A stretch of DNA of 64,000 bases, taken from NCBI GenBank assembly GCA_964016885.1, contig OZ024744.1, positions 64,480,001-64,544,000 on the forward strand, given 5' to 3'. The notes beneath the pieces are model-generated. The model was not told the origin of the DNA, made no database searches, and saw only the letters and a list, made by a program, of their open reading frames with translations. The translations under genes were made by a program, and so were the position numbers. The stretch comes from Eledone cirrhosa. Taxonomy: Eukaryota. Below are positions 1-63,680 of the stretch, one piece after another (position 1 is the stretch's first letter; every line of letters begins with the position of its first letter).

Positions 1-3000
1 GAGTTGTTGTTATCTTAAACTGAGAGAGAACTAGGTCAGGGTTGTTGTTATCTTAAACAGAGAGAAGACTAGGGTAGGGTTGTGGTCATCTTAAACTGAG
101 AGAGGACTAGGTTAGGGTTGTGGTCCTCTTAAACAGAGAGAGTACTAGGTTAGGGTAGTTGTCATCTTAAACTGAGAGGACTAGGTCAGAGTTGTTGTTA
201 TCTTAAACTGAGAGATAACTAGGTCAGGGTTCTTGCTATCTTAAACAGAGAGAGAACTAGGTCAGGGTTGTTGTTATCTTAAACAGAGAGAAGATAAGGG
301 TAGGGTTGTGGTCATCTTAAACTGAGAGAGGACTAGGTTAGGGTTGTGGTCCTCTTAAACAGAGAGAGGACTAGGTTAGGGTTGTTGTTATCTTAAACAT
401 AGAGAGGACTAGGTTAGGGTTGTTGTCATCTTAAACTAAGAGAGGACTAGGTTAGGGTAGTTGTTATGTTAAACTCAGAGAGAATTAGGTCAGGGTTGTT
501 GTTATCTTAAACAGAGAGAGAACTAGGTCAGGTTTGTTGTTATCTTAAACAGAGAGAGGAATAGGTTAGGGTTGGTGTTATCTTAAACACAGAGAGGACT
601 AGGTTAGGGTTGTTGTTATTTTAAACTGAGAGAGGAATAGGTTAGGGTTGGTGTCATCTTAAACAGAGAGAGAACTAGGTTAGTGTTGTTGTTATCTTAA
701 ACTGAGAGAGGACTAGTTTAGGGTTGTTGTTATCTTAAACTGAGAGGAAACTAGGTTACAGTTGTTGTCATCTTAAACAGAGAGAGGACTAGGTCAGGGT
801 TGTTGTCATCTTAAACAGAAAGAGGACTAGATTAGGGTTGTTGTCATCTTAAACTGCGAGAGGACTAGGTTAGGGTAAATGTTATCTTGAACTGAGAGAG
901 AACTAGGTCAGGGTTGTTGTTACCTTAAACTGAGAGAGGACTAGGTCAGAGTTGTTGCTATCTTAAACAGAGAGAGGACTAGGTTCGGGTTGTTGTCATC
1001 TTAAACTGAGAGAGGACTAGGTTAGGGTAATTGTTATCTTAAACTGAGAGAGAACTAGGTCAGGGTTGTTGTCATCTTAAACTGAGAGAGAACTAGGTCA
1101 GGGTTGTTGTCATCTTAAACTGAGAGGAAACTAGGTTTGGGTTGTTATCTTAAACAGAGAGAGGACTAGGTTAGGGTTGTTGTTATCTAAAACCGAGAGT
1201 GGACTAGGTTAGGGTAGTTGTCATCTTAAACTGAGAGAGGACTAGGTTAGGGTAATTGTTATTTTAAACTGAGAGGAGACTAGGTTAGGTTTGTTATCTT
1301 AAACTGAGAGAGGACTAGGTTAGAGTTGTTGTTATCTTAAACTTGGAAAAAAAACTAGGTCAGGGTTGTTGCTATCTTAAACACAAAGAGGACTAGGTTA
1401 GGGTTGTTATTTTAAACTGAAAGAGGACTAGATTAGGCTAATTGCTATCTTAAACAGAGAACTAGGTCAGGGTTGTGTTTATCTTACACTTAGAGATAAC
1501 TAGGTCAGGGAGTTGTTACCTTAAACTGAGAGAGGACTAGGTCAGGGTTGTTGTCATCTTAAACAGAGAGGACTAGGTCACGGTTGTTGTTATCTTAAAC
1601 AGAGAACTAGGTCAGGGTTATTATCATCTTAAACAGAGAGAGGACTAGCTTAGGGTAGTTGTTATCTTAAACTGAGAGAGGACTAGGTTAGGGTAGTTGT
1701 TATCTTAAACTGAGAGAGAACTAGGTCAGGGTTGTTGTTATCTTAAACTGAGAGAGTACTAGGTTAGGGTAGTTGTTATCTTAAACTGAGAGAGGACTAG
1801 GTTAGGGTAGTTGTTATCTTAAACTGAGAGAGGACTAGGTTAGGGTAGTTGTTACCTTAAACTGAGAGAGGACTAGGTTAGGGTTGTTGTTATCTTAAAC
1901 AGAGAGAGAGGACTAGGTTAGGGTAGTTGTCATCTTAAACAGAGAGGAGACTAGGTTAGGGTTGTTGTCATCTTAAACTGAGAGAGGACTAGGTCAGGGT
2001 TGTTGCTATCTTAAGCAGAGAGAGGACTAGGTTAGGGTTGTTGTTATTTTAAACAGTGAGAGGACTAGGTCAGGGTTTGTGTTATTTTAAACTGAGAGAG
2101 GAATAGGTTAGGGTTGGTGTTATTTTAAACTGACAGAGGAATAGGTTAGGGTTGGTGTTATCTTAAACAGAGAGAGGACTAGGTCAGGGTTGTTGCTATC
2201 TTAAACAGAGAGAGGACTAGGTCAGAGTTGATGTCATCTTAAACAGAGAGAGGACTAGGTCAGAGTTGATGTCATCTTAAACTGAGTGGAAACTAGGTTA
2301 GGGTTGTTCTCATCTTAAACTGAGAGAGGACTAGGTTAAGGTTGTTCTCATCTTAAACTGAGAGAGGACTAGGTTAGGGTTGTTATCTTAAACTGAGAGA
2401 GAACTAGGTCAGGGTTGTTGCTATCTTAAATAGAGAGAAAACTAGGTTAGGGTTATTGTTATTTTAAACAGAGACGAATAGGTTCGGGTTGGTTTTATCT
2501 TAAACAGAGAGGAATAGGTTAGGGTTGTTGTTATCTTAAACTGAGAGAACTAGGTCAGGGTTGTTGTCATTTTAAACTGAGAGATAACTAGGTCAGGGTT
2601 GTGGTCCTCTTAAACAGAGAGAGGACTAGTTCCGAGTTGTTGTCATCTTAAACAGAGAGAAGTAGGTGAGAGTTGTTGTTATCTTAAACTGAGAGAGAAC
2701 TAGGTCAGGGTTGTTGTTATCTTAAAGAGAGAAGACTAGGGTAGGGTTGTGGTCATCTTAAACTGAGAGAGGACTAGGTTAGGGTTGTGGTCCTCTTAAA
2801 CAGAGAGAGTACTAGGTTAGGGTAATTGTCATCTTAAACTGAGAGGACTAGGTCAGAGTTGTTGTTATCTTAAACTGAGAGATAACTAGGTCAGGGTTCT
2901 TGCTATCTTAAACAGAGAGAGAACTAGGTCAGGGTTGTTGTTATCTTAAACAGAGAGAAGATAAGGGTAGGGTTGTGGTCATCTTAAACTGAGAGAGGAC

Positions 3001-6000
3001 TAGGTTAGGGTTGTGGTCCTCATAAACAGAGAGAGGACTAGGTTAGGGTTGTTGTTATCTTAAACAGAGAGAGGACTAGGTTAGGGTTGTGGTCCTCTTA
3101 AACATAGAGAGGACTAGGTTAGGGTTGTTGTTATCTTAAACATAGAGGACTAGGTTAGGGTTGTTGTCATCTTAAACTAAGAGAGGACTAGGTTAGGGTA
3201 GTTGTTATGTTAAACTCAGAGAGAATTAGGTCAGGGTTGTTGTTATCTTAAACAGAGAGAGAACTAGGTCAGGTTTGTTGTTATCTTAAACAGAGAGAGG
3301 AATAGGTTAGGGTTGGTGTTATCTTAAACACAGAGAGGACTAGGTTAGGGTTGTTGTTATTTTAAACTGAGAGAGGAATAGGTTAGGGTTGGTGTCATCT
3401 TAAACAGAGAGAGAACTAGGTTAGTGTTGTTGTTATCTTAAACTGAGAGAGGACTAGTTTAGGGTTGTTGTTATCTTAAACTGAGAGGAAACTAGGTTAC
3501 AGTTGTTGTCATCTTAAACAGAGAGAGGACTAGGTCAGGGTTGTTGTCATCTTAAACAGAAAGAGGACTAGATTAGGGTTGTTGTCATCTTAAACTGCGA
3601 GAGGACTAGGTTAGGGTAAATGTTATCTTGAACTGAAAGAGAACTAGGTCAGGGTTGTTGTTACCTTAAACTGAGAGAGGACTAGGTCAGAGTTGTTGCT
3701 ATCTTAAACAGAGAGAGGACTAGGTTAGGGTAAATGTTATCTTGAACTGAAAGAGAACTAGGTCAGGGTTGTTGTTACCTTAAACTGAGAGAGGACTAGG
3801 TCAGAGTTGTTGCTATCTTAAACAGAGAGAGGACTAGGTTCGGGTTGTTGTCATCTTAAACTGAGAGAGGACTAGGTTAGGGTAATTGTTATCTTAAACT
3901 GAGAGAGAACTAGGTCAGGGTTGTTGTCATCTTAAACTGAGAGAGAACTAGGTCAGGGTTGTTGTCATCTTAAACTGAGAGGAAACTAGGTTTGGGTTGT
4001 TATCTTAAACAGAGAGAGGACTAGGTTAGGGTTGTTGTTATCTAAAACCGAGAGTGGACTAGGTTAGGGTAGTTGTCATCTTAAACTGAGAGAGGACTAG
4101 GTTAGGGTAATTGTTATTTTAAACTGAGAGGAGACTAGGTTAGGTTTGTTGTTACCTTAAACTGAGAGAGGACTAGGTTAGAGTTGTTGTTATCTTAAAC
4201 TTGGAAAAAAAACTAGGTCAGGGTTGTTGCTATCTTAAACACAAAGAGGACTAGGTTAGGGTTGTTATTTTAAACTGAAAGAGGACTAGGTTAGGCTAAT
4301 TGCTATCTTAAACAGAGAACTAGGTCAGGGTTGTGTTTATCTTACACTTAGAGATAACTAGGTCAGGGAGTTGTTACCTTAAACTGAGAGAGGACTAGGT
4401 CAGGGTTGTTGTCATCTTAAACAGAGAGGACTAGGTCACGGTTGTTGTTATCTTAAACAGAGAACTAGGTCAGGGTTATTATCATCTTAAACAGAGAGAG
4501 GACTAGCTTAGGGTAGTTGTTATCTTAAACTGAGAGAGGACTAGGTTAGGGTAGTTGTTATCTTAAACTGAGAGAGAACTAGGTCAGGGTTGTTGTTATC
4601 TTAAACTGAGAGAGTACTAGGTTAGGGTAGTTGTTATCTTAAACTGAGAGAGGACTAGGTTAGGGTAGTTGTTATCTTAAACTGAGAGAGGACTAGGTTA
4701 GGGTAGTTGTTACCTTAAACTGAGAGAGGACTAGGTTAGGGTTGTTGTTATCTTAAACAGAGAGAGAGGACTAGGTTAGGGTAGTTGTCATCTTAAACAG
4801 AGAGGAGACTAGGTTAGGGTTGTTGTCATCTTAAACTGAGAGAGGACTAGGTCAGGGTTGTTGCTATCTTAAGCAGAGAGAGGACTAGGTTAGGGTTGTT
4901 GTTATTTTAAACAGTGAGAGGACTAGGTCAGGGTTTGTGTTATTTTAAACTGAGAGAGGAATAGGTTAGGGTTGGTGTTATTTTAAACTGACAGAGGAAT
5001 AGGTTAGGGTTGGTGTTATCTTAAACAGAGAGAGGACTAGGTCAGGGTTGTTGCTATCTTAAACAGAGAGAGGACTAGGTCAGAGTTGATGTCATCTTAA
5101 ACAGAGAGAGGACTAGGTCAGAGTTGATGTCATCTTAAACTGAGTGGAAACTAGGTTAGGGTTGTTCTCATCTTAAACTGAGAGAGGACTAGGTTAGGGT
5201 TGTCCTCATCTTAAACTGAGAGAGGACTAGGTTAGGGTTGTTATCTTAAACTGAGAGAGAACTAGGTCAGGGTTGTTGCTATCTTAAATAGAGAGAAAAC
5301 TAGGTTAGGGTTATTGTTATTTTAAACAGAGACGAATAGGTTCGGGTTGGTTTTATCTTAAACAGAGAGGAATAGGTTAGGGTTGTTGTTATCTTAAACT
5401 GAGAGAACTAGGTCAGGGTTGTTGTCATTTTAAACTGAGAGATAACTAGGTCAGGGTTGTGGTCCTCTTAAGCAGAGAGAGGACTAGTTCCGAGTTGTTG
5501 TCATCTTAAACAGAGAGAAGTAGGTGAGAGTTGTTGTTATCTTAAACTGAGAGAGAACTAGGTCAGGGTTGTTGTTATCTTAAACAGAGAGAAGACTAGG
5601 GTAGGGTTGTGGTCATCTTAAACTGAGAGAGGACTAGGTTAGGGTTGTGGTCCTCTTAAACAGAGAGAGTACTAGGTTAGGGTAATTGTCATCTTAAACT
5701 GAGAGGACTAGGTCAGAGTTGTTGTTATCTTAAACTGAGAGATAACTAGGTCAGGGTTCTTGCTATCTTAAACAGAGAGAGAACTAGGTCAGGGTTGTTG
5801 TTATCTTAAACAGAGAGAAGATAAGGGTAGGGTTGTGGTCATCTTAAACTGAGAGAGGACTAGGTTAGGGTTGTGGTCCTCATAAACAGAGAGAGGACTA
5901 GGTTAGGGTTGTTGTTATCTTAAACAGAGAGAGGACTAGGTTAGGGTTGTGGTCCTCTTAAACATAGAGAGGACTAGGTTAGGGTTGTTGTTATCTTAAA

Positions 6001-9000
6001 CATAGAGGACTAGGTTAGGGTTGTTGTCATCTTAAACTAAGAGAGGACTAGGTTAGGGTAGTTGTTATGTTAAACTCAGAGAGAATTAGGTCAGGGTTGT
6101 TGTTATCTTAAACAGAGAGAGAACTAGGTCAGGTTTGTTGTTATCTTAAACAGAGAGAGGAATAGGTTAGGGTTGGTGTTATCTTAAACACAGAGAGGAC
6201 TAGGTTAGGGTTGTTGTTATTTTAAACTGAGAGAGGAATAGGTTAGGGTTGGTGTCATCTTAAACAGAGAGAGAACTAGGTTAGTGTTGTTGTTATCTTA
6301 AACTGAGAGAGGACTAGTTTAGGGTTGTTGTTATCTTAAACTGAGAGGAAACTAGGTTACAGTTGTTGTCATCTTAAACAGAGAGAGGACTAGGTCAGGG
6401 TTGTTGTCATCTTAAACAGAAAGAGGACTAGATTAGGGTTGTTGTCATCTTAAACTGCGAGAGGACTAGGTTAGGGTAAATGTTATCTTGAACTGAAAGA
6501 GAACTAGGTCAGGGTTGTTGTTACCTTAAACTGAGAGAGGACTAGGTCAGAGTTGTTGCTATCTTAAACAGAGAGAGGACTAGGTTAGGGTAAATGTTAT
6601 CTTGAACTGAAAGAGAACTAGGTCAGGGTTGTTGTTACCTTAAACTGAGAGAGGACTAGGTCAGAGTTGTTGCTATCTTAAACAGAGAGAGGACTAGGTT
6701 CGGGTTGTTGTCATCTTAAACTGAGAGAGGACTAGGTTAAGGTAATTGTTATCTTAAACTGAGAGAGAACTAGGTCAGGGTTGTTGTCATCTTAAACTGA
6801 GAGAGAACTAGGTCAGGGTTGTTGTCATCTTAAACTGAGAGAGAACTAGGTCAGGGTTGTTGTCATCTTAAACTGAGAGGAAACTAGGTTTGGGTTGTTA
6901 TCTTAAACAGAGAGAGGACTAGGTTAGGGTTGTTGTTATCTAAAACCGAGAGTGGACTAGGTTAGGGTAGTTGTCATCTTAAACTGAGAGAGGACTAGGT
7001 TAGGGTAATTGTTATTTTAAACTGAGAGGAGACTAGGTTAGGTTTGTTGTTACCTTAAACTGAGAGAGGACTAGGTTAGAGTTGTTGTTATCTTAAACTT
7101 GGAAAAAAAACTAGGTCAGGGTTGTTGCTATCTTAAACACAAAGAGGACTAGGTTAGGGTTGTTATTTTAAACTGAAAGAGGACTAGGTTAGGCTAATTG
7201 CTATCTTAAACAGAGAACTAGGTCAGGGTTGTGTTTATCTTACACTTAGAGATAACTAGGTCAGGGAGTTGTTACCTTAAACTGAGAGAGGACTAGGTCA
7301 GGGTTGTTGTCATCTTAAACAGAGAGGACTAGGTCACGGTTGTTGTTATCTTAAACAGAGAACTAGGTCAGGGTTATTATCATCTTAAACAGAGAGAGGA
7401 CTAGCTTAGGGTAGTTGTTATCTTAAACTGAGAGAGGACTAGGTTAGGGTAGTTGTTATCTTAAACTGAGAGAGAACTAGGTCAGGGTTGTTGTTATCTT
7501 AAACTGAGAGAGTACTAGGTTAGGGTAGTTGTTATCTTAAACTGAGAGAGGACTAGGTTAGGGTAGTTGTTATCTTAAACTGAGAGAGGACTAGGTTAGG
7601 GTAGTTGTTACCTTAAACTGAGAGAGGACTAGGTTAGGGTTGTTGTTATCTTAAACAGAGAGAGAGGACTAGGTTAGGGTAGTTGTCATCTTAAACAGAG
7701 AGGAGACTAGGTTAGGGTTGTTGTCATCTTAAACTGAGAGAGGACTAGGTCAGGGTTGTTGCTATCTTAAGCAGAGAGAGGACTAGGTTTGGGTTGTTGT
7801 TATTTTAAACAGTGAGAGGACTAGGTCAGGGTTTGTGTTATTTTAAACTGAGAGAGGAATAGGTTAGGGTTGGTGTTATTTTAAACTGACAGAGGAATAG
7901 GTTAGGGTTGGTGTTATCTTAAACAGAGAGAGGACTAGGTCAGGGTTGTTGCTATCTTAAACAGAGAGAGGACTAGGTCAGAGTTGATGTCATCTTAAAC
8001 AGAGAGAGGACTAGGTCAGAGTTGATGTCATCTTAAACTGAGTGGAAACTAGGTTAGGGTTGTTCTCATCTTAAACTGAGAGAGGACTAGGTTAAGGTTG
8101 TTCTCATCTTAAACTGAGAGAGGACTAGGTTAGGGTTGTTATCTTAAACTGAGAGAGAACTAGGTCAGGGTTGTTGCTATCTTAAATAGAGAGAAAACTA
8201 GGTTAGGGTTATTGTTATTTTAAACAGAGACGAATAGGTTCGGGTTGGTGTTATCTTAAACAGAGAGGAATAGGTTAGGGTTGTTGTTATCTTAAACTGA
8301 GAGAACTAGGTCAGGGTTGTTGTCATTTTAAACTGAGAGATAACTAGGTCAGGGTTGTGGTCCTCTTAAACAGAGAGAGGACTAGTTCCGAGTTGTTGTC
8401 ATCTTAAACAGAGAGAAGTAGGTGAGAGTTGTTGTTATCTTAAACTGAGAGAGAACTAGGTCAGGGTTGTTGTTATCTTAAACAGAGAGAAGACTAGGGT
8501 AGGGTTGTGGTCATCTTAAACTGAGAGAGGACTAGGTTAGGGTTGTGGTCCTCTTAAACAGAGAGAGTACTAGGTTAGGGTAGTTGTCATCTTAAACTGA
8601 GAGGACTAGGTCAGAGTTGTTGTTATCTTAAACTGAGAGATAACTAGGTCAGGGTTCTTGCTATCTTAAACAGAGAGAGAACTAGGTCAGGGTTGTTGTT
8701 ATCTTAAACAGAGAGAAGATAAGGGTAGGGTTGTGGTCATCTTAAACTGAGAGAGGACTAGGTTAGGGTTGTGGTCCTCATAAACAGAGAGAGGACTAGG
8801 TTAGGGTTGTTGTTATCTTAAACAGAGAGAGGACTAGGTTAGGGTTGTGGTCCTCTTAAACAGAGAGAGGACTAGGTTAGGGTTGTTGTTATCTTAAACA
8901 TAGAGGACTAGGTTAGGGTTGTTGTCATCTTAAACTAAGAGAGGACTAGGTTAGGGTAGTTGTTATGTTAAACTCAGAGAGAATTAGGTCAGGGTTGTTG

Positions 9001-12000
9001 TTATCTTAAACAGAGAGAGAACTAGGTCAGGTTTGTTGTTATCTTAAACAGAGAGAGGAATAGGTTAGGGTTGGTGTTATCTTAAACACAGAGGACTAGG
9101 TTAGGGTTGTTGTTATTTTAAACTGAGAGAGGAATAGGTTAGGGTTGGTGTCATCTTAAACAGAGAGAGAACTAGGTTAGTGTTGTTGTTATCTTAAACT
9201 GAGAGAGGACTAGTTTAGGGTTGTTGTTATCTTAAACTGAGAGGAAACTAGGTTACAGTTGTTGTCATCTTAAACAGAGAGAGGACTAGGTCAGGGTTGT
9301 TGTCATCTTAAACAGAAAGAGGACTAGATTAGGGTTGTTGTCATCTTAAACTGCGAGAGGACTAGGTTAGGGTAAATGTTATCTTGAACTGAAAGAGAAC
9401 TAGGTCAGGGTTGTTGTTACCTTAAACTGAGAGAGGACTAGGTCAGAGTTGTTGCTATCTTAAACAGAGAGAGGACTAGGTTCGGGTTGTTGTCATCTTA
9501 AACTGAGAGAGGACTAGGTTAGGGTAATTGTTATCTTAAACTGAGAGAGAACTAGGTCAGGGTTGTTGTCATCTTAAACTGAGAGAGAACTAGGTCAGGG
9601 TTGTTGTCATCTTAAACTGAGAGGAAACTAGGTTTGGGTTGTTATCTTAAACAGAGAGAGGACTAGGTTAGGGTTGTTGTTATCTAAAACCGAGAGTGGA
9701 CTAGGTTAGGGTAGTTGTCATCTTAAACTGAGAGAGGACTAGGTTAGGGTAATTGTTATTTTAAACTGAGAGGAGACTAGGTTAGGTTTGTTGTTATCTT
9801 AAACTGAGAGAGGACTAGGTTAGAGTTGTTGTTATCTTAAACTTGTAAAAAAAACTAGGTCAGGGTTGTTGCTATCTTAAACACAAAGAGGACTAGGTTA
9901 GGGTTGTTATTTTAAACTGAAAGAGGACTAGGTTAGGCTAATTGCTATCTTAAACAGAGAACTAGGTCAGGGTTGTGTTTATCTTACACTTAGAGATAAC
10001 TAGGTCAGGGTGTTGTTACCTTAAACTGAGAGAGGACTAGGTCAGGGTTGTTGTCATCTTAAACAGAGAGAGGACTAGGTCACGGTTGTTATCTTAAACA
10101 GAGAACTAGGTCAGGGTTATTATCATCTTAAACAGAGAGAGGACTAGCTTAGGGTAGTTGTTATCTTAAACTGAGAGAGGACTAGGTTAGGGTAGTTGTT
10201 ATCTTAAACTGAGAGAGGACTAGGTTAGGGTAGTTGTTATCTTAAACTGAGAGAGGACTAGGTTAGGGTAGTTGTTACCTTAAACTGAGAGAGGACTAGG
10301 TTAGGGTTGTTGTTATCTTAAACAGAGAGAGAGGACTAGGTTAGGGTAGTTGTCATCTTAAACAGAGAGGAGACTAGGTTAGGGTTGTTGTCATCTTAAA
10401 CTGAGAGAGGACTAGGTCAGGGTTGTTGCTATCTTAAGCAGAGAGAGGACTAGGTTAGGGTTGTTGTTATTTTAAACAGTGAGAGGACTAGGTCAGGGTT
10501 TGTGTTATTTTAAACTGAGAGAGGAATAGGTTAGGGTTGGTGTTATTTTAAACTGACAGAGGAATAGGTTAGGGTTGGTGTTATCTTAAACAGAGAGAGG
10601 ACTAGGTCAGGGTTGTTGCTATCTTAAACAGAGAGAGGACTAGGTCAGAGTTGATGTCATCTTAAACTGAGTGGAAACTAGGTTAGGGTTGTTCTCATCT
10701 TAAACTGAGAGAGGACTAGGTTAGGGTTGTTATCTTAAACTGAGAGAGAACTAGGTCAGGGTTGTTGCTATCTTAAATAGAGAGAAAACTAGGTTAGGGT
10801 TATTGTTATTTTAAACAGAGACGAATAGGTTCGGGTTGGTGTTATCTTAAACAGAGAGGAATAGGTTAGGGTTGTTGTTATCTTAAACTGAGAGAACTAG
10901 GTCAGGGTTGTTGTCATTTTAAACTGAGAGATAACTAGGTCAGGGTTGTGGTCCTCTTAAACAGAGAGAGGACTAGTTCCGGGTTGTTGTCATCTTAAAC
11001 AGAGAGAAGTAGGTGAGAGTTGTTGTTATCTTAAACTGAGAGAGAACTAGGTCAGGGTTGTTGTCATCTTAAACAGAGAGAAGTAGGTCAGGGTTGTTGT
11101 TATCTTAAACTGAGAGAGAACTAGGTCAGGGTTGTTGTCATCTTAAACAGAGAGAAGTAGGTCAGGGTTGTTGTTATCTTAAACTGAGAGAGAACTAGGT
11201 CAGGGTTGGTGCTATCTTAAACAGAGACAGGAATAGGTTAGGGTTGTTGTTATTTTAAACTGAGAGAGGAATAGGTTAGGGTTGGTATTACCTTAAACTG
11301 AGAGAGGACTAGGTCAGGGCTGTTGCTATCTTAAACAGAGAGAGGACTAGGGTTGTTGTTATCTTAAACAATGAGTGGACTAGGTTAGGGTTGTTATCTT
11401 AAACTGAGAGAGAACTAGGTCAGGGTTGTTGCTATCTTAAATAGAGAGAAAACTAGGTTAGGGTTATTGTTATTTTAAACAGAGACGAATAGGTTCGGGT
11501 TGGTGTTATCTTAAACAGAGAGGAATAGGTTAGGGTTGTTGTCATCTTAAACAGAGAGAGGACTAGGTTAGGGTTGTTGTTATCTTAAACTGAGACATGA
11601 CTAGGTTAGGGTTGTTGTCATCTTAAACTGAGAGAGAACTACGTCACGGTTGTTATCTTAAACTGAGAGAGAACTAGGTCAAGTTTGTTGTTATCTTAAA
11701 CAGCGATAGGACTAGGTCAGGGTTGATGTCATCTTGAACTGAGAGGAAACTAGGTTAGAGTAGTTGTCATCTTAAACAGAGAGGACTAGGTTAAGGTTGT
11801 TGTTATCTAAAACTGAGAGAGGACTAGGTTAGGGCAATTGTTATTTTAAACTGAGTGAAAACTAGGTCAGGGTTGTTGTTACCTTAAACTGAGAGAGAAC
11901 TATGTTAGGGTTGTTGTCATCTTAAACACAGGAGACTAGGTTAGGGTTGTTATCTTAAACTGAGAGAGGACTAGGTCAGGGTTGTTGTCATCTTAAACAG

Positions 12001-14964
12001 AGGACTAGGTTCAGGTTGTTGTCATCCTAAACTGCGAGAGGACTAGGTTAGGGTAATTGTTATCTTGAACTGAGAGAGAACTAGGTCAGGGTTGTTGTTG
12101 ACTTAAACTGAGAGAGGAGTAGGTCACGGTTGTTGCTATCTTAAACAGAGAGTGGACTAGGTCAGGGTTGTTGCTATCTTAAACAGAGAGAGGACTAGGT
12201 TAGGGTTGTTGTCATCTTAAACTGAGAGAGGACTAGGTTAGAGTTGTTATCTTAAACAGAGAGAGGACTAGGTCAGGGTTGTTGTCATCTTAAACAGAGA
12301 GAGTACTAGGTTAGGGTAGTTGTTATCTTAAACAGAGAGAAGACTAGGGTAGGGTTGTGGTCATCTTAAACTGAGAGAGGACTAGGTTAGGGTTGTGGTC
12401 CTCTTAAACAGAGAGAGGACTAGGTTAGGGTTGTTGTCATCTAAAACTGAGAGAGGAATAGATTAGGGTTGGTGTTATCTTAAACTGAGAGAGGACTAGG
12501 TCAGGGTTGTTGTTATCTTAAACAGAGAGAGGACTAGGTTAGGTTTGTTGTTATCTTAAACTGAGAGAGGAATAGGTCAGGGTTGTTGTTATCTTAAACT
12601 GAGAGAGGACTAGGTTAGAGTTGTTGTTATCTTAAACTGAGAAAAAAACTAGGTCAGGGTTGTTGCTATCTTAAACACAAAGAGGACTAGGTTAGGGTTG
12701 TTATTTTAAACTGAAAGAGGACTAGGTTAGGCTAATTGCTATCTTAAACAGAGAACTAGGTCAGGGTTGTGTTTATCTTACACTTAGAGATAACTAGGTC
12801 AGGGTGTTGTTACCTTAAACTGAGAGAGGACTAGGTCAGGGTTGTTGTCATCTTAAACAGAGAGAGGACTAGGTCACGATTGTTGTTATCTTAAACAGAG
12901 AACTAGGTCAGGGTTATTGTCATCTTAAACAGAGAGAGGACTAGGTTAGGGTAGTTGTTATCTTAAACTGAGAGAGGACTAGGTTAGGGTAGTTGTTATC
13001 TTAAACTGAGAGAGAACTAGGTCAGGGTTGTTGTTATCTTAAACTGAGAGACTACTAGGTTAGGGTAGTTGTTATCTTAAACTGAGAGAGGACTAGGTTA
13101 GGGTAGTTGTTATCTTAAACTGAGAGAGGACTAGGTTAGGGTAGTTGTTATCTTAAACTGAGAGAGGACTAGGTTAGGGTAGTTGTTACCTTAAACTGAG
13201 AGAGGACTAGGTTAGGGTTGTTGTTATCTTAAACAGAGAGAGGACTAGGTTAGGGTTGTTGTCATCTTAAACAGAGAGGAGACTAGGTCAGGGTTGTTGT
13301 CATCTTAAACTGAGAGAGGACTAGGTCAGGGTTGTTGCTATCTTAAGCAGAGAGAGGACTAGGTTAGGGTTGTTGTTATTTTAAACAGTGAGAGGACTAG
13401 GTTAGGGTTTGTGTTATTTTAAACTGAGACAGGAATAGGTTAGGGTTGGTGTTATTTTAAACTGACAGAGGAATAGGTTAGGGTTGGTGTTATCTTAAAC
13501 AGAGAGAGGACTAGGTCAGGGTTGTTGCTATCTTAAACAGAGAGAGGACTAGGTCAGAGTTAATGTCATCTTAAACTGAGTGGAAACTAGGTTAGGGTTG
13601 TTCTCATCTTAAACTGAGAGAGGACTAGGTTAGGGTTGTCCTCATCTTAAACTGAGAGAGGACTAGGTTAGGGTTGTTATCTTAAACTGAGAGAGAACTA
13701 GGTCAGGGTTGTTGCTATCTTAAATAGAGAGAAAACTAGGTTAGGGTTATTGTTATTTTAAACAGAGACGAATAGAGACTGGTTAGGGTAGTTGTTATCT
13801 TAAACTGAGAGAGGACTAGGTTAGGGTAGTTGTTATCTTAAACTGAGAGAGGACTAGGCTAGGGTAGTTGTTACCTTAAACTGAGAGAGGACTAGGTTAG
13901 GGTTGTTGTTATCTTAAACAGAGAGAGGACTAGGTTAGGGTAGTTGTCATCTTAAACAGAGAGGAGACTAGGTTAGGGTTGTTGTCATCTTAAACTGAGA
14001 GAGGACTAGGTCAGGGTTGTTGCTATCTTAAGCAGAGAGAGGACTAGGTCAGGGTTGTTATCTTAAACTGAGAGGGGACTAGGTCAGGGTTGTTATTATC
14101 TTAAACTGAGAGAGAACTAGGTCAGGGTTGTTGTTATCTTAAACTGAGAGAGAACTAGGTCAGGGTTGTTGCTATCTTAAACAGAGAGAGGACTAGGTTA
14201 GAGTTGTTGTCATCTTAAACAGAGAGAGGACTAGGTTAGGGTAGTTGTCATCTTAAACAGAGAGGAGACTAGGTTAGGGTTGTTGTCATCTTAAACTGAG
14301 AGAGGACTAGGTCAGGGTTGTTGCTATCTTAAGCAGAGAGAGGACTAGGTCAGGGTTGTTATCTTAAACTGAGAGGGGACTAGGTCAGGGTTGTTATTAT
14401 CTTAAACTGAGAGAGAACTAGGTCAGGGTTGTTGTTATCTTAAACTGAGAGAGAACTAGGTCAGGGTTGTTGCTATCTTAAACAGAGAGAGGACTAGGTT
14501 AGAGTTGTTGTCATCTTAAACAGAGAGAGGACTAGGTTAGGGTTGTTGTCATCTTAAACTGAGAGAGAACTAGGTCAGGGTTGTTGCTATCTTAAACAGA
14601 GAGAGGACTAGGTTAGAGTTGTCATCTTAAACAGAGAGGACTAGGTTAGGTTTGTTGTTATCTTAAACTGAGAGAGGAATAGGTCAGGGTTGTTGCTATC
14701 TTAAACAGAGAGAGGACTAGGTTAGAGTTGTTGTCATCTTAAACAGAGAGGACTAGGTTAGGTTTGTTGTTATCTTAAACTGAGAGAGGAATAGGTCAGG
14801 GTTGTTGTTATCTTAAACAGAGAGAGGACTAGGTTAGAGTTGTTGTCATCTTAAACAGAGAGGACTAGGTCAGGGTTGTTGTTATCTTAAACTGAGAGGG
14901 GACTAGGTTAGGTTTGTTGTTATCTTAAACTGAGAGAGCTTTGACTAGGTTAGGTTTGTTATCT
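1..14964. repeat. 38-bp satellite array with ~2.6-2.9 kb higher-order repeat; runs off the left edge
   Basis: Consensus GTTGTTGTTATCTTAAAC(T/A)GAGAGAGGACTAGGT(T/C)AGG, period 38 (e.g. 1801 vs 1839). Rare variant CTTG(G/T)AAAAAAAAC recurs at 1342, 4200, 7098 and 9842. Confidence 0.98.
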
Positions 14965-31220: not shown

Positions 31221-32643
31221 CTCTTAACATTCTGTACCACATGAAAATGCAGCGAAAGGACATTGTTGAAAAGTGCAAAACAGCTTTAATGTACGAGGGA
31301 CAACTTTAATTATTATGTAATATATCAACAACCATTGACATGGAACATTCGTTTTAGCATAATTAATTGACTTTAATGTCTTTAATCTAATACTACAAAT
31401 GTTTACAAGATTCTATCCTCAATAAAGATACCTGCTTATTATAGGGTGTTAAGATGGTAAGGTGAGATTTTGTTTGCTATTCCTATTAATTTTAGCAAGA
31501 ATATTACATACATATACATTAAATATATGTGTTGCTGTTCTTTGCCATTGTATTGTGACATTTGTAAAGAAATATCTTTTTTTTTTCTCTGCTGACACAC
31601 AAAAAAATAACATGCACTAAATAATAATCATAAATAAAACTTAATGACAAATGCCAAATCATCTACCATTAACACCTAACGTTCTGTACCACATGAATTT
31701 ACACTAACATGATATTCTTGAAGAAAAGTATAAAACAGAATTATGATTTTTGACTGCATGATATGAAAAATTAAAATCTTTACTCAAATACAGCAATTTG
31801 TCACAATTTTCTGTCCAACAGTGAAGATACTATAAAGGTAAAGACCCCCTTCGATCACGAATGACCTTGGGATTTGCACCTAGAAATGTTCCCCCTCTGG
31901 GACACAAGTCTGGATAAGGTTGTAGTAAAGATATTATAAACATTTGAATTAACAAACTGACTTTTAGATATTTTCTGCTAAATCATTAGAGGATGTTTTA
32001 AGAGTTAAGATGGGATGTTCATGCTTTGTGTTAGTTAGTCTAGATTAAAGGATCTCTAACTTTTGGGGCCATGTAATACCCTCAAACCCCCCCCCCCCCA
32101 TAGGACCCAGCCCACACTGTAAAGTGGTGCTGGTCTTGGTTGGGGATGCAGCTGGATCAGTTGGTGTGTAAAAAGCACCTAGTACACACTGAAGGACATC
32201 CAGTCGTAAAAATCCAACCAGTAACAGTTCTATATGAGCAAGACATGGTCACCTGACTCAACTTGCCTCAAATGGGGCAACCCGTCTAACCCATATTAGT
32301 GCGTAAAATGATGATGATGATGATGATGATGATGATGGTGGTTGAGAGTGGTGTTCATAGTATGTGTTCATACTGCTAGTCACTACTATAATTTTCTGTT
32401 TAAGTTGTTCTTTGATTGAAGGTTATCTTCTATCTTCTGTAGTTCATACTTTTCTTTTACTTTCTTTCCCTTTCTCTTTTCTACATCCTTGTTCTTACCC
32501 AGTTCCTCCATGACCATTATTTCTGCTTTTCCAAAATATCCTGTTAATGCAATCTCATGTGGTATTGGGACATTACCAGTTAATCATAGGTCAGATGGAA
32601 TAATTTTCTTAAGTAATGGTCAGATAGTAACAATAATAGTAAT

Positions 32644-35600
32644 GGTTGTAGCTGTATTGGTAGTGGTGGTAGTTGTAGTTGTATTGGTAGTGGTGGTAGT
32701 TGCAGTTGTATTGGTAGTGGTGGTAGTTGTAGTTGTATTGGTAGTGGTGGTAGTTGTAGTTGTATTGGTAGTGGTGGTAGTTGTAGTTGTATTGGTAGTG
32801 GTGGTAGTTGTAGTTGTATTGGTAGTGGTGGTAGTTGTAGTTGTATTGGTAGTGGTGGTAGTTGTAGTTGTATTGGTAGTGGTGGTAGTTGTAGTTGTAT
32901 TGGTAGTGGTGGTAGTTGTAGTTGTATTGGTAGTGGTGGTAGTTGTAGTTGTATTGGTAGTGGTGGTAGTTGTAGTTGTATTGGTAGTGGTGGTAGTTGT
33001 AGTTGTATTGGTAGTTGTAGTTGTATTGGTAGTGGTGGTAGTTGTAGTTGTATTGGTAGTGGTGGAAGTTGTAGTTGTATTGGTAGTGGTGGTAGTTGTA
33101 GTTGTATTGGTATTGGTGGTAGTTGTAGTTGTATTGGTAGTGGTGGAAGTTGTAGTTGTATTGGTAGTGGTGGAAGTTGTAGTTGTATTGGTAGTGGTGG
33201 AAGTTGTAGTTGTATTGGTAGTGGTGGTAGTTGTAGTTGTATTGGTAGTGGTGGTAGTTGTAGTTGTATTGGTAGTGGTGGTAGTTGTAGTTGTATTGGT
33301 AGTGGTGGTAGTTGTAGTTGTATTGGTAGTGGTGGTAGTTGTAGTTGTATTGGTAGTGGTGGAAGTTGTAGTTGTATTGGTAGTGGTGGTAGTTGTAGTT
33401 GTATTGGTATTGGTGGTAGTTGTAGTTGTATTGGTATTGGTGGTAGTTGTAGTTGTATTGGTAGTGGTGGAAGTTGTAGTTGTATTGGTAGTGGTGGTAG
33501 TTGTAGTTGTATTGGTAGTGGTGGTAGTTGTAGCTGTATTGGTAGTGGTGGTAGTTGTAGTTGTATTGGTAGTGGTGGTAGTTGTAGCTGTATTGGTAGT
33601 GGTGGTAGTTGTAGTTGTATTGGTAGTGGTGGTAGTTGTAGTTGTATTGGTAGTGGTGGTAGTTGTAGTTGTATTGGTAGTGGTGGTAGTTGTAGTTGTA
33701 TTGGTAGTGGTGGTAGTTGTAGTTGTATTGGTAGTGGTGGAAGTTGTAGTTGTATTGGTAGTGGTGGTAGTTGTAGTTGTATTGGTAGTGGTGGTAGTTG
33801 TAGTTGTATTGGTAGTGGTGGTAGTTGTAGTTGTATTGGTAGTGGTGGTAGTTGTAGTTGTATTGGTAGTGGTGGTAGTTGTAGTTGTATTGGTAGTGGT
33901 GGTAGTTGTAGTTGTATTGGTAGTGGTGGTAGTTGTAGTTGTATTGGTAGTGGTGGAAGTTGTAGTTGTATTGGTAGTGGTGGTAGTTGTAGTTGTATTG
34001 GTAGTGGTGGTAGTTGTAGTTGTATTGGTAGTGGTGGAAGTTGTAGTTGTATTGGTAGTGGTGGTAGTTGTAGCTGTATTGGTAGTGGTGGTAGTTGTAG
34101 TTGTATTGGTAGTGGTGGAAGTTGTAGTTGTATTGGTAGTGGTGGAAGTTGTAGTTGTATTGGTAGTGGTGGTAGTTGTAGTTGTATTGGTAGTGGTGGT
34201 AGTTGTAGTTGTATTGGTAGTGGTGGAAGTTGTAGTTGTATTGGTAGTGGTGGTAGTTGTAGCTGTATTGGTAGTGGTGGTAGTTGTAGTTGTATTGGTA
34301 GTGGTGGAAGTTGTAGTTGTATTGGTAGTGGTGGTAGTTGTAGTTGTATTGGTAGTGGTGGTAGTTGTAGTTGTATTGGTAGTGGTGGTAGTTGTAGTTG
34401 TATTGGTAGTGGTGGTAGTTGTAGTTGTATTGGTAGTGGTGGTAGTTGTAGTTGTATTGGTAGTGGTGGTAGTTGTAGTTGTATTGGTAGTGGTGGAAGT
34501 TGTAGTTGTATTGGTAGTGGTGGTAGTTGTAGTTGTATTGGTAGTGGTGGTAGTTGTAGCTGTATTGGTAGTGGTGGTAGTTGTAGCTGTATTGGTAGTG
34601 GTGGTAGTTGTAGTTGTATTGGTAGTGGTGGTAGTTGTAGTTGTATTGGTAGTGGTGGTAGTTGTATTGGTAGAAGTTGTATTGGTAGTGGTGGTAGTTG
34701 TAGTTGTATTGGTAGTGGTGGTAGTTGTAGTTGTATTGGTAGTGGTGGTAGTTGTAGTTGTATTGGTAGTGGTGGAAGTTGTAGTTGTATTGGTATTGGT
34801 GGTAGTTGTAGTTGTATTGGTAGTGGTGGAAGTTGTAGTTGTATTGGTAGTGGTGGTAGTTGTAGTTGTATTGGTAGTGGTGGAAGTTGTAGTTGTATTG
34901 GTAGTGGTGGTAGTTGTAGCTGTATTGGTAGTGGTGGTAGTTGTAGTTGTATTGGTAGTGGTGGAAGTTGTAGCTGTATTGGTAGTGGTGGTAGTTGTAG
35001 TTGTATTGGTAGTGGTGGAAGTTGTAGTTGTATTGGTAGTGGTGGTAGTTGTAGTTGTATTGGTAGTGGTGGTAGTTGTAGTTGTATTGGTAGTGGTGGT
35101 AGTTGTAGTTGTATTGGTAGTGGTGGTAGTTGTAGTTGTATTGGTAGTGGTGGTAGTTGTAGTTGTATTGGTAGTGGTGGAAGTTGTAGTTGTATTGGTA
35201 GTGGTGGTAGTTGTAGTTGTATTGGTAGTGGTGGAAGTTGTAGTTGTATTGGTAGTGGTGGTAGTTGTAGTTGTATTGGTAGTGGTGGTAGTTGTAGTTG
35301 TATTGGTATTGGTGGTAGTTGTAGTTGTATTGGTATTGGTGGTAGTTGTAGTTGTATTGGTATTGGTGGTAGTTGTAGTTGTATTGGTAGTGGTGGTAGT
35401 TGTAGTTGTATTGGTAGTGGTGGTAGTTGTAGTTGTATTGGTAGTGGTGGTAGTTGTAGTTGTATTGGTAGTGGTGGTAGTTGTAGTTGTATTGGTAGTG
35501 GTCATAGATAGTTGTATTGGTAGTGGTGGTAGTTGTATTGGTAGTGGTGGTAGTTGTAGTTGTATTGGTAGTGGTGGTAGTTGTATTGGTAGAAGTTGTA

Positions 35601-36204
35601 TTGGTAGTGGTGGTAGTTGTAGTTGTATTGGTAGTGGTGGTAGTTGTATTGGTAGAAGTTGTATTGGTAGTGGTGGTAGTTGTAGTTGTATTGGTAGTGG
35701 TGGTAGTTGTAGTTGTATTGGTAGTGGTGGTAGTTGTAGTTGTATTGGTATTGGTGGTAGTTGTAGTTGTATTGGTAGTGGTGGTAGTTGTAGTTGTATT
35801 GGTAGTGGTGGTAGTTGTAGTTGTATTGGTAGTGGTGGTAGTTGTAGTTGTATTGGTAGTGGTCATAGATAGTTGTATTAGTAATAGTGGTAGTAGTTGT
35901 ATTGGTAGTGGTGGTAGTTGTATTGGTAGTGGTCATAGATAGTTGTATTAGTAATAGTGGTGGTAGTGGTAGTTGTTGTGTTGGTAGTAGTTGTATTGGT
36001 AGTGGTCATAGATAGTTGTATTAGTAATAGTGGTAGTAGTTGTATTGGTAGTGGTCATAGATAGTTGTATTAGTAATAGTAATAGTGGTAGTAGTTATAT
36101 TGGTAGTGGTGGTAGTTATATTGGTAGTGGTGGTAGTTGTATTGGTAGTGGTCATAGATAGTTGTATTAGTAATAGTGGTAGTTGTATTGGTAGTGGTAG
36201 TTGT
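32644..36204. repeat. 27-bp minisatellite (TGTATTGGTAGTGGTGGTAGTTGTAGT)n, ~3.5 kb, degenerating on the right
   Basis: Very homogeneous 27-bp period to ~35870 with few point variants and 3n indels; GGTCATAGATAG interruptions from 35500 onward. Confidence 0.98.
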
Positions 36205-58587: not shown

Positions 58588-59205
58588 GGGTGGTTGCATT
58601 GGCAGTATCGGTCGGACATAATGCTTCGCCGCATAGAGTTACGACCATTTACGTTCTGAGTTCAAATCCCGCCGAGGTTAGCTTTACCTCTCATCCTTAC
58701 GGAGTCGACAAAATAAAGTACCAGTAGCGCACTGGGGTCGATTTAATCGACTTTCTCCCCTCCCCCCAAATTGCTGGCATCGTGCCTTTAATAGAAGTCA
58801 TTATTAATAAGGGCGGTAGATTGGCAGTATCGGTAGAGAGTCGGACGCCATGCTTTCCAGCATAGTTACGTCCCTTTACGATCTGAGTTCAAATCCCGCC
58901 GAGGTTGACTTTGCCTTTCATCCTTACACGGGAGTCGATAAAATAAAGTGCCAGTAATGCACTGGGTAATTGCTGGCCTTGTGCCTAAAGTAGAAACAAT
59001 TATTAATATTGGTGGATTGGCAATATCGATAGAGGGTCTGACGCCATGCTTTGCAGCATAGAGTTACGGTCCTTTATGGTCTGAGTTCAAATCCCGCCGA
59101 GGTCAACTTTGCCTTTCATCCTTACACGGGCGTCGATAAAATAAAGTACCAGTAATACACTGGCATAATTGCTGGCCTTGAGCCAAAAGTAGAAACAATT
59201 ATTAA
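58588..59205 (+). mobile_element. Three head-to-tail main-family SINEs (long, short, short)
   Basis: Heads TTGGCA(G/A)TATCG at ~58599, 58821 and 59018, separated by ATTATTAATA tails. Confidence 0.92.
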
Positions 59206-59734
59206 TATTCCTTACCAACAATTAACCCTCTCTACCCTGTTCTCCATATAAAACTATCATGTTACCTTCCTGAAATTACTGTCAATATGTAACTTTGCTT
59301 CGAACATAATTGTTGTATGTGTTTGTATATGTATATTAAAAATATTCAAAACAAATACATCGCCGTTATACCACAGCCTCCACTTACCTGCCACCACTAT
59401 CACCCTAATCAGAACCTCCCGACAAAATACTACTGGCAACACCCCCATCGCCCAACAGAATACCAGCATCACCTCCACCAAACAATAATACCACTGCAAC
59501 AAACACCTAACAGAATACCACTACTACCACCATCATCACAACTATAAAATATACTACGGTCGGTATTGCAATCATAACCCCCCACCCCCACCAACACCAA
59601 TCATTATCACATCTATCCAACAAAATAACATCACCACTATCACAACCATCCATTAGAATACCACCCTCAACACCCACCTCATATCTAACCCCTTTATCTA
59701 TTTTGTGCACCTTGATAATTTATTTTATTTTAAC

Positions 59735-60369
59735 ATATAAATTTGTGATATTCATAATTTTTAATCGTTTTTCTTTTCCTTTTGTGAAAGTTTCATGATT
59801 TTCAAAAGTTAAGAAATATTGAGTTTAATGCAAAAGAAAAAAAAAAAAAGCTGATTGCTATGTTTGAAGTACAATTTGATAGGTGGAGGGGATCACGTGA
59901 TTAGGCATTGAATGTTGTGCTAATTTCGCGCCAAAAATACGGGAGTGTCATGGTTCTTTCAGTTTTATGCAGAAGGGTGGCTCAAATTGTTTATCTGCTT
60001 AAAAAGTAATCTGTTAGGCTGAGGATGATCACGTGATATGGTGGTCTTTTCATGTTAAAAATAAAAATGGAGTGTCATGGTTTAGTGAATATGGACAGTG
60101 GCAATTCATATTTATTTTTCGTATGTTATGTAGTCAATTCAATACCTAATCACGTGATCTTGTTCAACCTTTCAAATTGCACTTCAAACATATAGCAATT
60201 TGAGTCACATTTTTGGCATAAAACTGAAAGAAATTCCCAACACCAGTTAGATGCGGGTTACACGTCGGCATAGCAACACATCTCTCAATCTCTTTTAACG
60301 TTTGAAAATCATGAAACTTGTGAAACCGACACAATTTATAAATTGTTGTAAATAAACCTTGCATGTTTA

Positions 60370-60437
<68 letters not shown>

Positions 60438-60518
60438 GTCTGTGTATGAAGTTAAACATGAAAGGTTTATTTACAACAATTTATAAATTGTGTCGGTTTT
60501 ACAAGTTTCATGATTTTC

Positions 60519-61185: not shown

Positions 61186-61600
61186 TTTAGTGATAAGACA
61201 GAAGACAACCAATGAGCGGGAATTGTCCTAGTGTTTGTGATTCCGTGTTTTCGCCCACGTTTTTTAAAATAATATTTATTGGTAACCACACAGCCTCATT
61301 TTTTACTTTTTATATACACACACGCACATTTCGTTTTTGTATTTGTATTTGTTTTTTGCAAGATTTCTTATCTGAAAACGTGTGTTGAAACAGATATTAT
61401 TATACACAGACACACACATACATATGTATCGTGGTTGTTGTTAGGAAGGGCATCGAACTATAGAAAGTAAGCCAAAATACAGGTCCGTATCAGCACTGTC
61501 TTGTTTCATAACGCGACAACCAGTCTAACCCATACAAGCATAGAAAAATAGACGTTAAACAATGTTGATGATATATATATATATATATATATACGATATA

Positions 61601-61931
61601 TTAACAAATGGAAACTATATTTATTTCATTATACATATTTCAAGGACACCAAGTCAAATTATGGTGCGCTTTCATCAGATAAAATATAATATAGATCAGT
61701 TTTATAAATAAATATTGACATACCCTTAAAGAATGCGACCATTTCTATTGGAAGCTCCCGGAGCTTCCAACAGAAATGGTCGCATTCTTTAAGGGTATGT
61801 CAATATTTATTTATAAAACTGATCTATATTATATTTTATCTGATGAAAGCGCACCATAATTTGACTTGGTGTCCTTGAAATGTGTATAATGAAATAAATA
61901 TGGTTTTATAAATATAGTTTCCATTTGTTAA
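61601..61931. repeat. Near-perfect ~160-bp-arm palindrome with 1-nt loop (centre 61759)
   Basis: ..GGAAGCTCC-C-GGAGCTTCC..; two mismatches and one 14-nt indel. Confidence 0.97.
61832..61896 (+). ncRNA. Type I hammerhead ribozyme fold; mirror copy on the minus strand at 61622-61686
   Basis: TATTTTAT-CTGATGA-AAGCGCACCA(loop)TGGTGTCCTT-GAAA-T(G/A)TGTATA-ATGAAATA: helices I and II pair, helix III is short and self-complementary. Confidence 0.6.
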
Positions 61932-62015
61932 ATTATTGGAGTAAAAATACGATATATTGAGTGCTTTATATCAGTTATAAAAATATTTGCTTGTTGTATC
62001 CCAACAATAACTTCT

Positions 62016-62053
<38 letters not shown>

Positions 62054-62057
62054 TTAT

Positions 62058-62285
<228 letters not shown>

Positions 62286-62376
62286 GAGTTAAACAAGATT
62301 CAATGAGTATATTAAAGAATGAGTTTTACAGTAGATTGGAAGCACTCAACGGTAAAAAATTTTTCCAGAGTTATTA

Positions 62377-62639
62377 ATATTAAAATACAAATATTAATAA
62401 AATAGATGTTCTTTTGATCAATTACATTTTATTATACATATTTCGGATGTACAACAGTACGTCCTCATCAGACAAAGTATAATGCCTTGATTAAATCTTA
62501 ACCATTTAACATCTCAGGGTATGTCATGTATCATTATATTTTGTCTGATGAGGACGTACTGTTGTACATCCGAAATATGTATAATAAAATGTAATTCATC
62601 AAAAGAACATCTATTTTATTAATATTTGTATTTTAATAT
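62377..62639. repeat. Inverted repeat with ~108-bp arms and a 47-nt spacer
   Basis: 62377-62484 vs 62532-62639, about two mismatches. Confidence 0.96.
62533..62595 (+). ncRNA. Type I hammerhead ribozyme fold; mirror copy on the minus strand at 62421-62483
   Basis: ATTATATTTTGT-CTGATGA-GGACGTAC(TGTT)GTACATCC-GAAA-TATGTATA-ATAAAATGTAAT: canonical G10.1-C11.1, 12-bp helix I with G.U pairs, putative AUA cleavage triplet at 62581-62583. Confidence 0.72.
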
Positions 62640-62749
62640 ATATATATATATATTGGAAAATGTACGAGATCCTTGATACAGTTAAGTATGTTTGAAAAAA
62701 AGGAAAAGAATGACATCATTTGTTCTAAATAATTTGATTTAATTTTATA

Positions 62750-63680
<931 letters not shown>

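What the first reader, a model, noticed from the sequence alone, without database searches (positions are those of the whole stretch)
61601..61931. 331-bp near-perfect palindrome containing two divergent hammerhead ribozymes
Seen: ~160-bp arms with a 1-nt loop; CTGATGA at 61840 (plus) and 61678-61672 (minus), each with a pairing helix II, GAAA, a short T(A/G)TGTATA helix III and an 8-bp helix I; (TA)n on both sides. A transcript from either strand would be a rod-like dsRNA with a sense ribozyme paired to its antisense. Known: Penelope-like elements carry minimal hammerheads in pseudo-LTRs and can form inverted termini; rod-like RNAs with ribozymes in both polarities typify viroid-like replicons; long hairpins are ADAR and Dicer substrates. 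Inference: most simply a Penelope-derived non-autonomous palindrome formed by fold-back, possibly mobile as a unit. Spacerless palindromes are unstable, so it is either young or an artefact.
Basis: partly seen in the sequence, partly recalled or inferred. Interest (0 to 1): 0.75.

Follow-up and report, generated by a model that had tools for sequence, protein, structure and literature searches.

The report
Back-to-back Penelope retroelement ends, octopus
The mirror-image stretch with a hammerhead ribozyme motif on each strand is real, but it is one of many similar stubs of a Penelope-type jumping gene, likely built during insertion by copying the element's RNA twice, and its ribozymes are predicted to be shut off by pairing between the arms.

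Summary
The palindrome and both hammerhead motifs are real, and artefact is unlikely. It is the insertion stub of an abundant Penelope-like retroelement whose ORF has Hydra-clade motifs. In 88 position-ordered insertions, 51 have an inverted arm. Its outer end lies at a fixed site ~88 nt short of the tail end in 49 of 51, while the inner ends vary. Either arm can carry sequence the other lacks, up to kilobases of ORF. That argues against simple fold-back and against movement as a unit. Likeliest mechanism (inferred): both cut strands of a (TA)n target prime reverse transcription at two fixed sites of one RNA, and the two cDNAs are joined by microhomology. Inner ends pile up at one site, likely the RNA's 5' end; none pile up at the ribozyme cut. 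The architecture, and opposite-strand hammerhead pairs, are published (PMC4209133, PMC8557442, PMC3846280). This scan found the same kind of stub on other DNA, this genome included. Ordinary kind; modest mechanistic value.

The parts
61592..61758 (-). Short arm: inverted copy of the element's 5' leader/pLTR, from about +5 to the fixed inner start site (+188-190); 14-bp deletion after 61616
61756..61762 (.). Junction TCCCGGA with unpaired C at 61759; likely microhomology join of two cDNA 3' ends (inferred)
61760..62018 (+). Long arm: same leader/pLTR in sense orientation, running through the tail to the second fixed end (+277)
61931..62018 (+). One-sided tail (about 88 nt in sister copies); 61931-61956 is inverted in this copy
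61832..61896 (+). Type I hammerhead motif: helix I 61832-39/61889-96, CTGATGA 61840-46, helix II 61847-76, GAAA 61877-80, TGTGTA (A>G variant of the family's TATGTA), predicted cut after 61888
61622..61686 (-). Mirror hammerhead motif, family-typical TATGTA helix III, predicted cut after 61630 on the minus strand
61571..61593 (.). (TA)n target, left part
62019..62049 (.). (CA)/(TA)n target, right part
62281..62640 (-). Second insertion of the same build from another family: tail 62281-62376, palindrome 62377-62639, hammerhead motifs at 62545 (+) and 62471 (-)

Best explanation
The palindrome is a short insertion of a Penelope-like retrotransposon with Hydra-clade motifs, made of two head-to-head copies of the element's 5' leader, and it was likely built at this site when both cut strands of a (TA)n repeat primed reverse transcription on the element's RNA. 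Shown: parent element with RT and C-terminal endonuclease motifs; two fixed outer ends about 88 nt apart, nearly always one of each per insertion; variable inner ends that pile up at +1 to +12; the two arms of a locus share SNP haplotypes; either arm can be the longer. Inferred: the two ends are two RT start sites; both cDNAs usually come from one RNA molecule or one source copy; the pile-up site is the transcription start; the cDNA 3' ends anneal at CCGG/TCCCGGA. The ribozymes are passengers: the template was uncut when copied, and in a read-through transcript the arms are predicted to pair with each other instead of folding a hammerhead.
For: Parent: longer copies continue from the arm into a 3' UTR and an ORF with YRDD, and form partial tandems where arm plus tail lead into the ATG (L120, L121). 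The predicted structure's top hits are telomerase RTs. Ends: 45 of 45 compact palindromes have one tailed and one tail-less arm. In 88 position-ordered insertions the inverted arm ends at 183-195 in 49 of 51, and 86 of 88 tails are followed by TA/CA repeats. Independence of arms: tail-less arm reaches further in for 26 of 42, tailed arm for 8, equal for 8; no overlap in L198, L252; ORF on the tailed arm in 4 and on the tail-less arm in 7 of 11 clean two-ended long insertions among 32 loci (my count). Same source: arm divergence 1.6% within loci against 2.8% between, 0 of 5000 permutations; 12 private variants mirrored. Inner stop: 22 of 42 and 15 of 47 ends in +1..12, p<1e-7 each against uniform. 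Hairpin: helix I and II pairing probability below 1e-23 in the whole palindrome, against 0.44 and 0.93 in the sense arm alone. Literature: two RT start sites define the tail, both strands are extended, protein predicted dimeric, uncut RNA is the main substrate (PMC11167929).
Against: No biochemistry and no RNA data here. Two tail/tail cases among 51 (L205, L189) and one possible short/short case (L123). Later deletions from a once-complete palindrome could mimic unequal arms in single cases. A few loci carry a shared haplotype on one arm only (L130, L140), which needs two templates or conversion. The pile-up of tailed-arm ends near the second start site (12 of 45), expected if both RTs share one RNA, is not significant after scan correction (p 0.083). 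The +1 stop could be an RT pause or a favoured joining site rather than the RNA end. The +1..12 window was chosen after seeing an earlier sample. Pfam finds no domain in the ORF, and the Hydra assignment rests on motifs, not on a tree.
Confidence: 0.72

Rival explanations
1. Same parent element, but the inverted arm arises by self-priming (snap-back of cDNA or of an antisense RNA), with endonuclease trimming giving the fixed short end and later deletion giving unequal arms.
For: Arms share haplotypes and private variants. Self-priming was proposed for Penelope palindromes in PMC3846280, and endonuclease resolution for the tail in PMC8557442.
Against: The tail-less arm often holds sequence absent from the tailed arm, up to kilobases, and the tailed arm always holds the tail. 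Centres with 0 or 1 unpaired base are common, easier by annealing of two ends than by a loop (inference).
Confidence: 0.18
2. The whole palindrome is a non-autonomous element that moves as a unit (MITE-like or retrozyme-like).
For: About 200 loci share this central pattern (202 forward, 204 reverse matches); 40 of 40 scored hits to the window copy cover nearly the whole palindrome (selected for likeness).
Against: Only 9 of 88 unselected insertions have both arms ending in +1..12. The window's 23-nt centre occurs on at least three SNP backgrounds and in both spellings relative to the tail. Ends are asymmetric and match the parent's ends.
Confidence: 0.05
3. The locus makes a functional rod-like or circular RNA with ribozymes in both polarities, or a host-used dsRNA (editing, small RNA).
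For: Motifs intact and covarying across families; a read-through transcript would fold a ~150-bp duplex, -242.6 kcal/mol.
Against: Covariation is explained by the parent elements. Each strand has only one sense ribozyme, predicted unfolded in the duplex. The + arm has lost the family helix III base, and arms gather private mutations independently (64 single-arm private variants).
Confidence: 0.04
4. Assembly or fold-back read artefact.
For: Spacerless palindromes can be artefacts (general knowledge).
Against: Flanks differ on the two sides, arms differ by substitutions, a deletion and an inversion, and the same build recurs on many contigs and in several families.
Confidence: 0.01

Closest known systems
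Insertion units of endonuclease-positive Penelope-like elements with an inverted 5'-truncated pLTR and a one-sided tail (PMC8557442; PMC3846280)
   Same: Head-to-head arms, tail at one end only, partial tandems, (TA)n targets.
   Different: Tail about 88 nt rather than 30-40; both arms cut down to the leader, no ORF left.
Hydra clade of Penelope-like elements, including Hydra-1_Obim (PMC8557442)
   Same: RWR, DKT, YRDD, CxCX5C linker, no CCHH, CxxC and CxH, hammerhead, (TA)n.
   Different: Monomer 4.2 kb with a long low-complexity 3' UTR (described Hydra mostly under 3 kb); by eye a different family from Hydra-1_Obim; not placed on a tree.
Minimal type I hammerheads of metazoan Penelope-like elements, including opposite-strand pairs 100-700 bp apart in Schistosoma mansoni (PMC4209133)
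   Same: Core, long helix II, short palindromic helix III suited to dimers, two motifs on opposite strands (162 bp apart here).
   Different: This family has A-U where G10.1-C11.1 is usual; cleavage untested.
Anolis Poseidon PAc in vitro (PMC11167929)
   Same: Two internal start sites bracket the tail; AT-rich target; both strands extended; uncut RNA used.
   Different: Here read from genomic ends only; the sites lie upstream of the ATG, not inside the ORF; one of each end per insertion is not shown in the parts of that paper I read.
LINE-1 twin priming (recalled, not read here)
   Same: Second target strand primes a second cDNA, giving an inversion joined by microhomology.
   Different: In LINE-1 the second site is variable and the two cDNAs copy different parts; here both sites are fixed and the cDNAs overlap, giving a palindrome.

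Membership tests
EN+ Penelope-like element insertion | Linked to a telomerase-like RT plus GIY-YIG-type ORF | tested here: met
   Arm continuous with UTR and ORF in L085, L120, L121, L128; top fold hits TERT; endonuclease read from motifs only, Pfam blank
EN+ Penelope-like element insertion | Partial tandem forming pLTRs | tested here: met
   L120, L121, L169
EN+ Penelope-like element insertion | Inverted 5'-truncated copy and tail at one end | tested here: met
   45 of 45; 49 of 51
EN+ Penelope-like element insertion | Target-site duplication | tested here: inconclusive
   Both ends fall in TA repeats, so a duplication cannot be told apart
Hydra clade | RWK-like, DKT, CxCX5C linker, CxxC and CxH, no CCHH | tested here: met
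   RWR, DKT and CNCKNKSNC, CDLC and CKH; criteria
Hydra clade | Insertion into (TA)n and hammerhead present | tested here: met
   86 of 88
Hydra clade | Generally short (<3 kb) | tested here: not met
   Monomer 4226 bp in L120; a tendency in the paper, not a strict criterion
Hydra clade | Phylogenetic placement of the RT | not tested
   Reference proteins seen only as supplement text
Type I hammerhead ribozyme | Conserved core with helices I-III that covary | tested here: met
   15 motifs: core invariant; 93% of cells paired, 15 of 20 pairs with double changes, slid controls 33-56% (structure drawn from the window copy, one row misaligned)
Type I hammerhead ribozyme | G10.1-C11.1 pair | tested here: not met
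   A-U in this family; G-C in the second family
Type I hammerhead ribozyme | Self-cleavage | not testable with these tools
   No pile-up of ends at the cut site: 2 vs 2.4 and 2 vs 2.1 expected
Non-LTR retrozyme | Head-to-tail tandem units, each with a same-strand hammerhead | tested here: not met
   Arms are head-to-head; definition from bioRxiv 2026.07.22.740005
MITE or foldback DNA transposon | Symmetric terminal inverted repeats and a constant interior | tested here: not met
   Asymmetric ends, variable centre
Viroid-like RNA | Circular RNA replicating with active ribozymes in both polarities | not testable with these tools
   No RNA holder listed; hammerhead fold predicted absent in the duplex

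The most novel reading that the evidence does not exclude
These stubs are a genomic record of double priming on one RNA: a dimeric Penelope protein starts two cDNAs at fixed sites about 88 nt apart, one from each target strand; when it loads on the mRNA's 5' leader instead of the 3' pLTR, both run off the RNA's 5' end and anneal there. This would explain the tail, the inverted pLTR and roughly a thousand two-hammerhead palindromes in one genome, and would map the transcription start from DNA alone.
Probability: 0.45. Interest if true: 0.5.

Novelty: new member of a known kind. Interest (0 to 1): 0.3.

Why it matters
As an object it is an ordinary Penelope insertion and removes a false lead on viroid-like RNA devices. 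The family is useful because how Penelope elements make inverted ends and tails is called undefined in PMC8557442. The end statistics give sharp predictions for an in vitro system: one cDNA from each start site per event, shared template, joining at the RNA 5' end. Many long perfect hairpins could also feed RNA editing in a cephalopod, which was not tested.

Tried and rejected
Rfam: no hammerhead family at E<=10 on 4 kb or on 131 bp. Pfam and PDB sequence search: nothing useful for the ORF. Protein atlas gave no result. My first clade guess, Neptune, was dropped after checking motifs. A tail-only DNA search returned nothing; a 20-mer pattern was used instead. No RNA holder listed, so expression, editing, splicing and cleavage are open. 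Contigs of five runs of unrecorded kind show both fixed ends followed by TA runs and no GT..AG joint, and no contig spans the palindrome; not counted as support, since a run may be the assembly's source. Collision of the two RTs near +170-193: suggestive, not significant. One search had wrong helix II indices and a faulty descriptor; one search replaces those parts. One search crashed after printing; one search repeats it. An octamer-like motif upstream of +1 is not kept across subfamilies. No age in years is given, for lack of a rate.

Full report
Observation. The palindrome is centred on 61759; ungapped arms 61612-61758 and 61760-61906 pair at 144 of 147 positions, and pairing extends to 61601/61931 across a 14-nt bulge. 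Hammerhead motifs start at 61840 (+) and 61678 (-). A descriptor needing the core, helix I and helix II finds four sites in the window, these two and a second palindrome at 62471/62545, against none in 200 shuffles. Rfam has no matching family. This copy has a 14-bp deletion in the left arm and a 26-bp inversion at 61931-61956.

A dispersed family. The window lies in a 3.0-Gb genome. The best protein relatives with names are from Argonauta hians and Octopus bimaculoides, so the host is likely an octopod (inference). The palindrome drew 1013 candidates, of which 40 were scored, all covering nearly the whole query on many contigs. A 20-mer from the tail has 4428 exact matches, shared by several subfamilies. 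The neighbouring palindrome belongs to another family with the same build. Different flanks, fixed ends and arm-specific mutations rule out a read artefact for the family; no long read over this locus was available.

Parent element. Longer copies continue from the arm into a low-complexity 3' UTR and an ORF. L120 and L121 are partial tandems in which arm and tail lead into the ATG, so the arm is the 5' leader and pLTR. The ORF has RWR, DKT, YRDD, a CxCX5C linker, one cysteine between the GIY and YIG positions, CxxC and CxH. These are the Hydra-clade features of PMC8557442 (passages; supplement hits). A model with mean pLDDT 85 has telomerase RTs as top fold hits. Pfam was blank. I built no tree; the monomer (4.2 kb) is longer than typical Hydra elements.

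Ends. I examined 37 of the 40 loci plus 8 compact palindromes: all 45 have one tailed and one tail-less arm. For an unselected sample I fetched 90 loci from the first 100 tail matches on contig C1; three matches fetched without upstream sequence and two duplicate views were dropped, leaving 88 insertions. Of these, 43 have an adjacent inverted arm and 8 one within 1.4 kb; 37 show none in that range. The inverted arm ends at 183-195 in 49 of 51 and at the tail end in 2. TA or CA repeats follow 86 of 88 tails. Both arms hold the hammerhead in 22 of 88, which scales roughly to a thousand loci (extrapolation from one contig).

Two cDNAs rather than fold-back. The tail-less arm reaches further into the element in 26 of 42, the tailed arm in 8, equal in 8. 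In L198 and L252 the arms do not overlap. Among 32 long loci, 11 are clean two-ended insertions: the ORF is on the tailed arm in 4 and on the tail-less arm in 7; L123 may have two short ends; the rest are complex or one-ended (my count). Neither arm can then be a simple copy of the other, though later deletion can explain single cases. Yet arms share a source: divergence 1.6% within loci against 2.8% between (0 of 5000 permutations), with 12 private and 43 shared variants mirrored, and 64 private and 49 shared variants on one arm only; 2.1% against 6.3% in 21 unselected loci. L130 and L140 carry a haplotype on one arm only, which goes against a strict single template.

Where the arms stop. Inner ends pile up at +1..+12 from the A of ACTATCC: 22 of 42 tail-less and 15 of 47 tailed arms ending between -20 and 175. 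This motif and a TATA-like stretch upstream are kept across subfamilies. I read this as the RNA's 5' end (inference; an RT pause is possible). About 200 loci have a centre like the window's. The 23-nt centre occurs on at least three SNP backgrounds and as CCCGG or CCGGG relative to the tail, as expected if two cDNA ends anneal over TCCCGGA with a central mismatch, and not if one palindrome spread as a unit. No excess of ends lies at the ribozyme cut (2 against 2.4; 2 against 2.1). A pile-up of tailed-arm ends near the second start site fails a scan correction (p 0.083).

The ribozymes. Fifteen motifs from several families keep the core and covary in helices I, II and the palindromic helix III, so the parents' hammerheads are likely under selection. 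In the palindrome they are predicted to be off: helix probabilities fall below 1e-23, from 0.44 and 0.93 in the sense arm alone. No RNA run was listed.

Comparison with what is known. PMC4209133 (parts 1-2 of 4 read) reports minimal hammerheads in pLTRs and pairs 100-700 bp apart on opposite strands. PMC3846280 (passages) describes inverted pLTRs, a one-sided tail and palindromes at the junction, and proposes self-priming. PMC11167929 (parts 1-2 of 4) shows two RT start sites bracketing the tail, extension of both strands and use of uncut RNA. bioRxiv 2026.07.22.740005 (part 1 of 5; supplements closed) defines retrozymes as tandem, which this is not. Six searches (listings only, apart from the papers above) showed no paper stating double priming on one RNA for Penelope elements; most subscription papers are outside the library. 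LINE-1 twin priming is recalled, not read. Earlier notes of this scan reach the same reading in other octopus genomes and in this one; they are unchecked and not counted as support.

Verdict. Real, Penelope-derived, a known architecture; new family member. Confidence in Penelope origin is very high, in the double-priming mechanism about 0.7. Interest 0.3.

Noticed in passing
window 62281-62640: Second tail-plus-palindrome insertion with two hammerhead motifs, from a different dispersed family (63 candidates, 40 scored); its inner ends also seem to cluster at one site.
   Followed up: partly
window 61795-61803 and 62518-62526; L057: GG|GTATGTCA, resembling a splice donor, stands shortly upstream of the hammerhead in several families; Hydra-1_Obim also begins with GGGTATG. 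No splice joint seen in contigs of unknown kind.
   Followed up: partly
window 60305-60510: Another inverted repeat of about 70 bp on either side of a (TA)n run, without hammerhead; family not identified.
   Followed up: no
window 3-14960: Satellite of period 38, about 398 copies, containing GGTTAGG, with strong GC skew.
   Followed up: no
window 32600-36000: Long G-rich low-complexity tandem array giving spurious open frames.
   Followed up: no
window 58637-59209: Three copies of a roughly 200-bp direct repeat.
   Followed up: no
window 61520-61571 and 63298-63345: 3' end of a common repeat ending in (GAT)n directly before the TA run that received the insertion; seen beside other copies too (L066, L255).
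   Followed up: no
L211 (G000:C1:56024450-56025900): Two identical tail-plus-palindrome units in mirror image, 1.2 kb across: a palindrome of palindromes or an assembly error.
   Followed up: no
L002, L068, L085, L061, L077: Opposite-strand hammerhead pairs of at least four other families turn up by chance in flanking DNA.
   Followed up: partly
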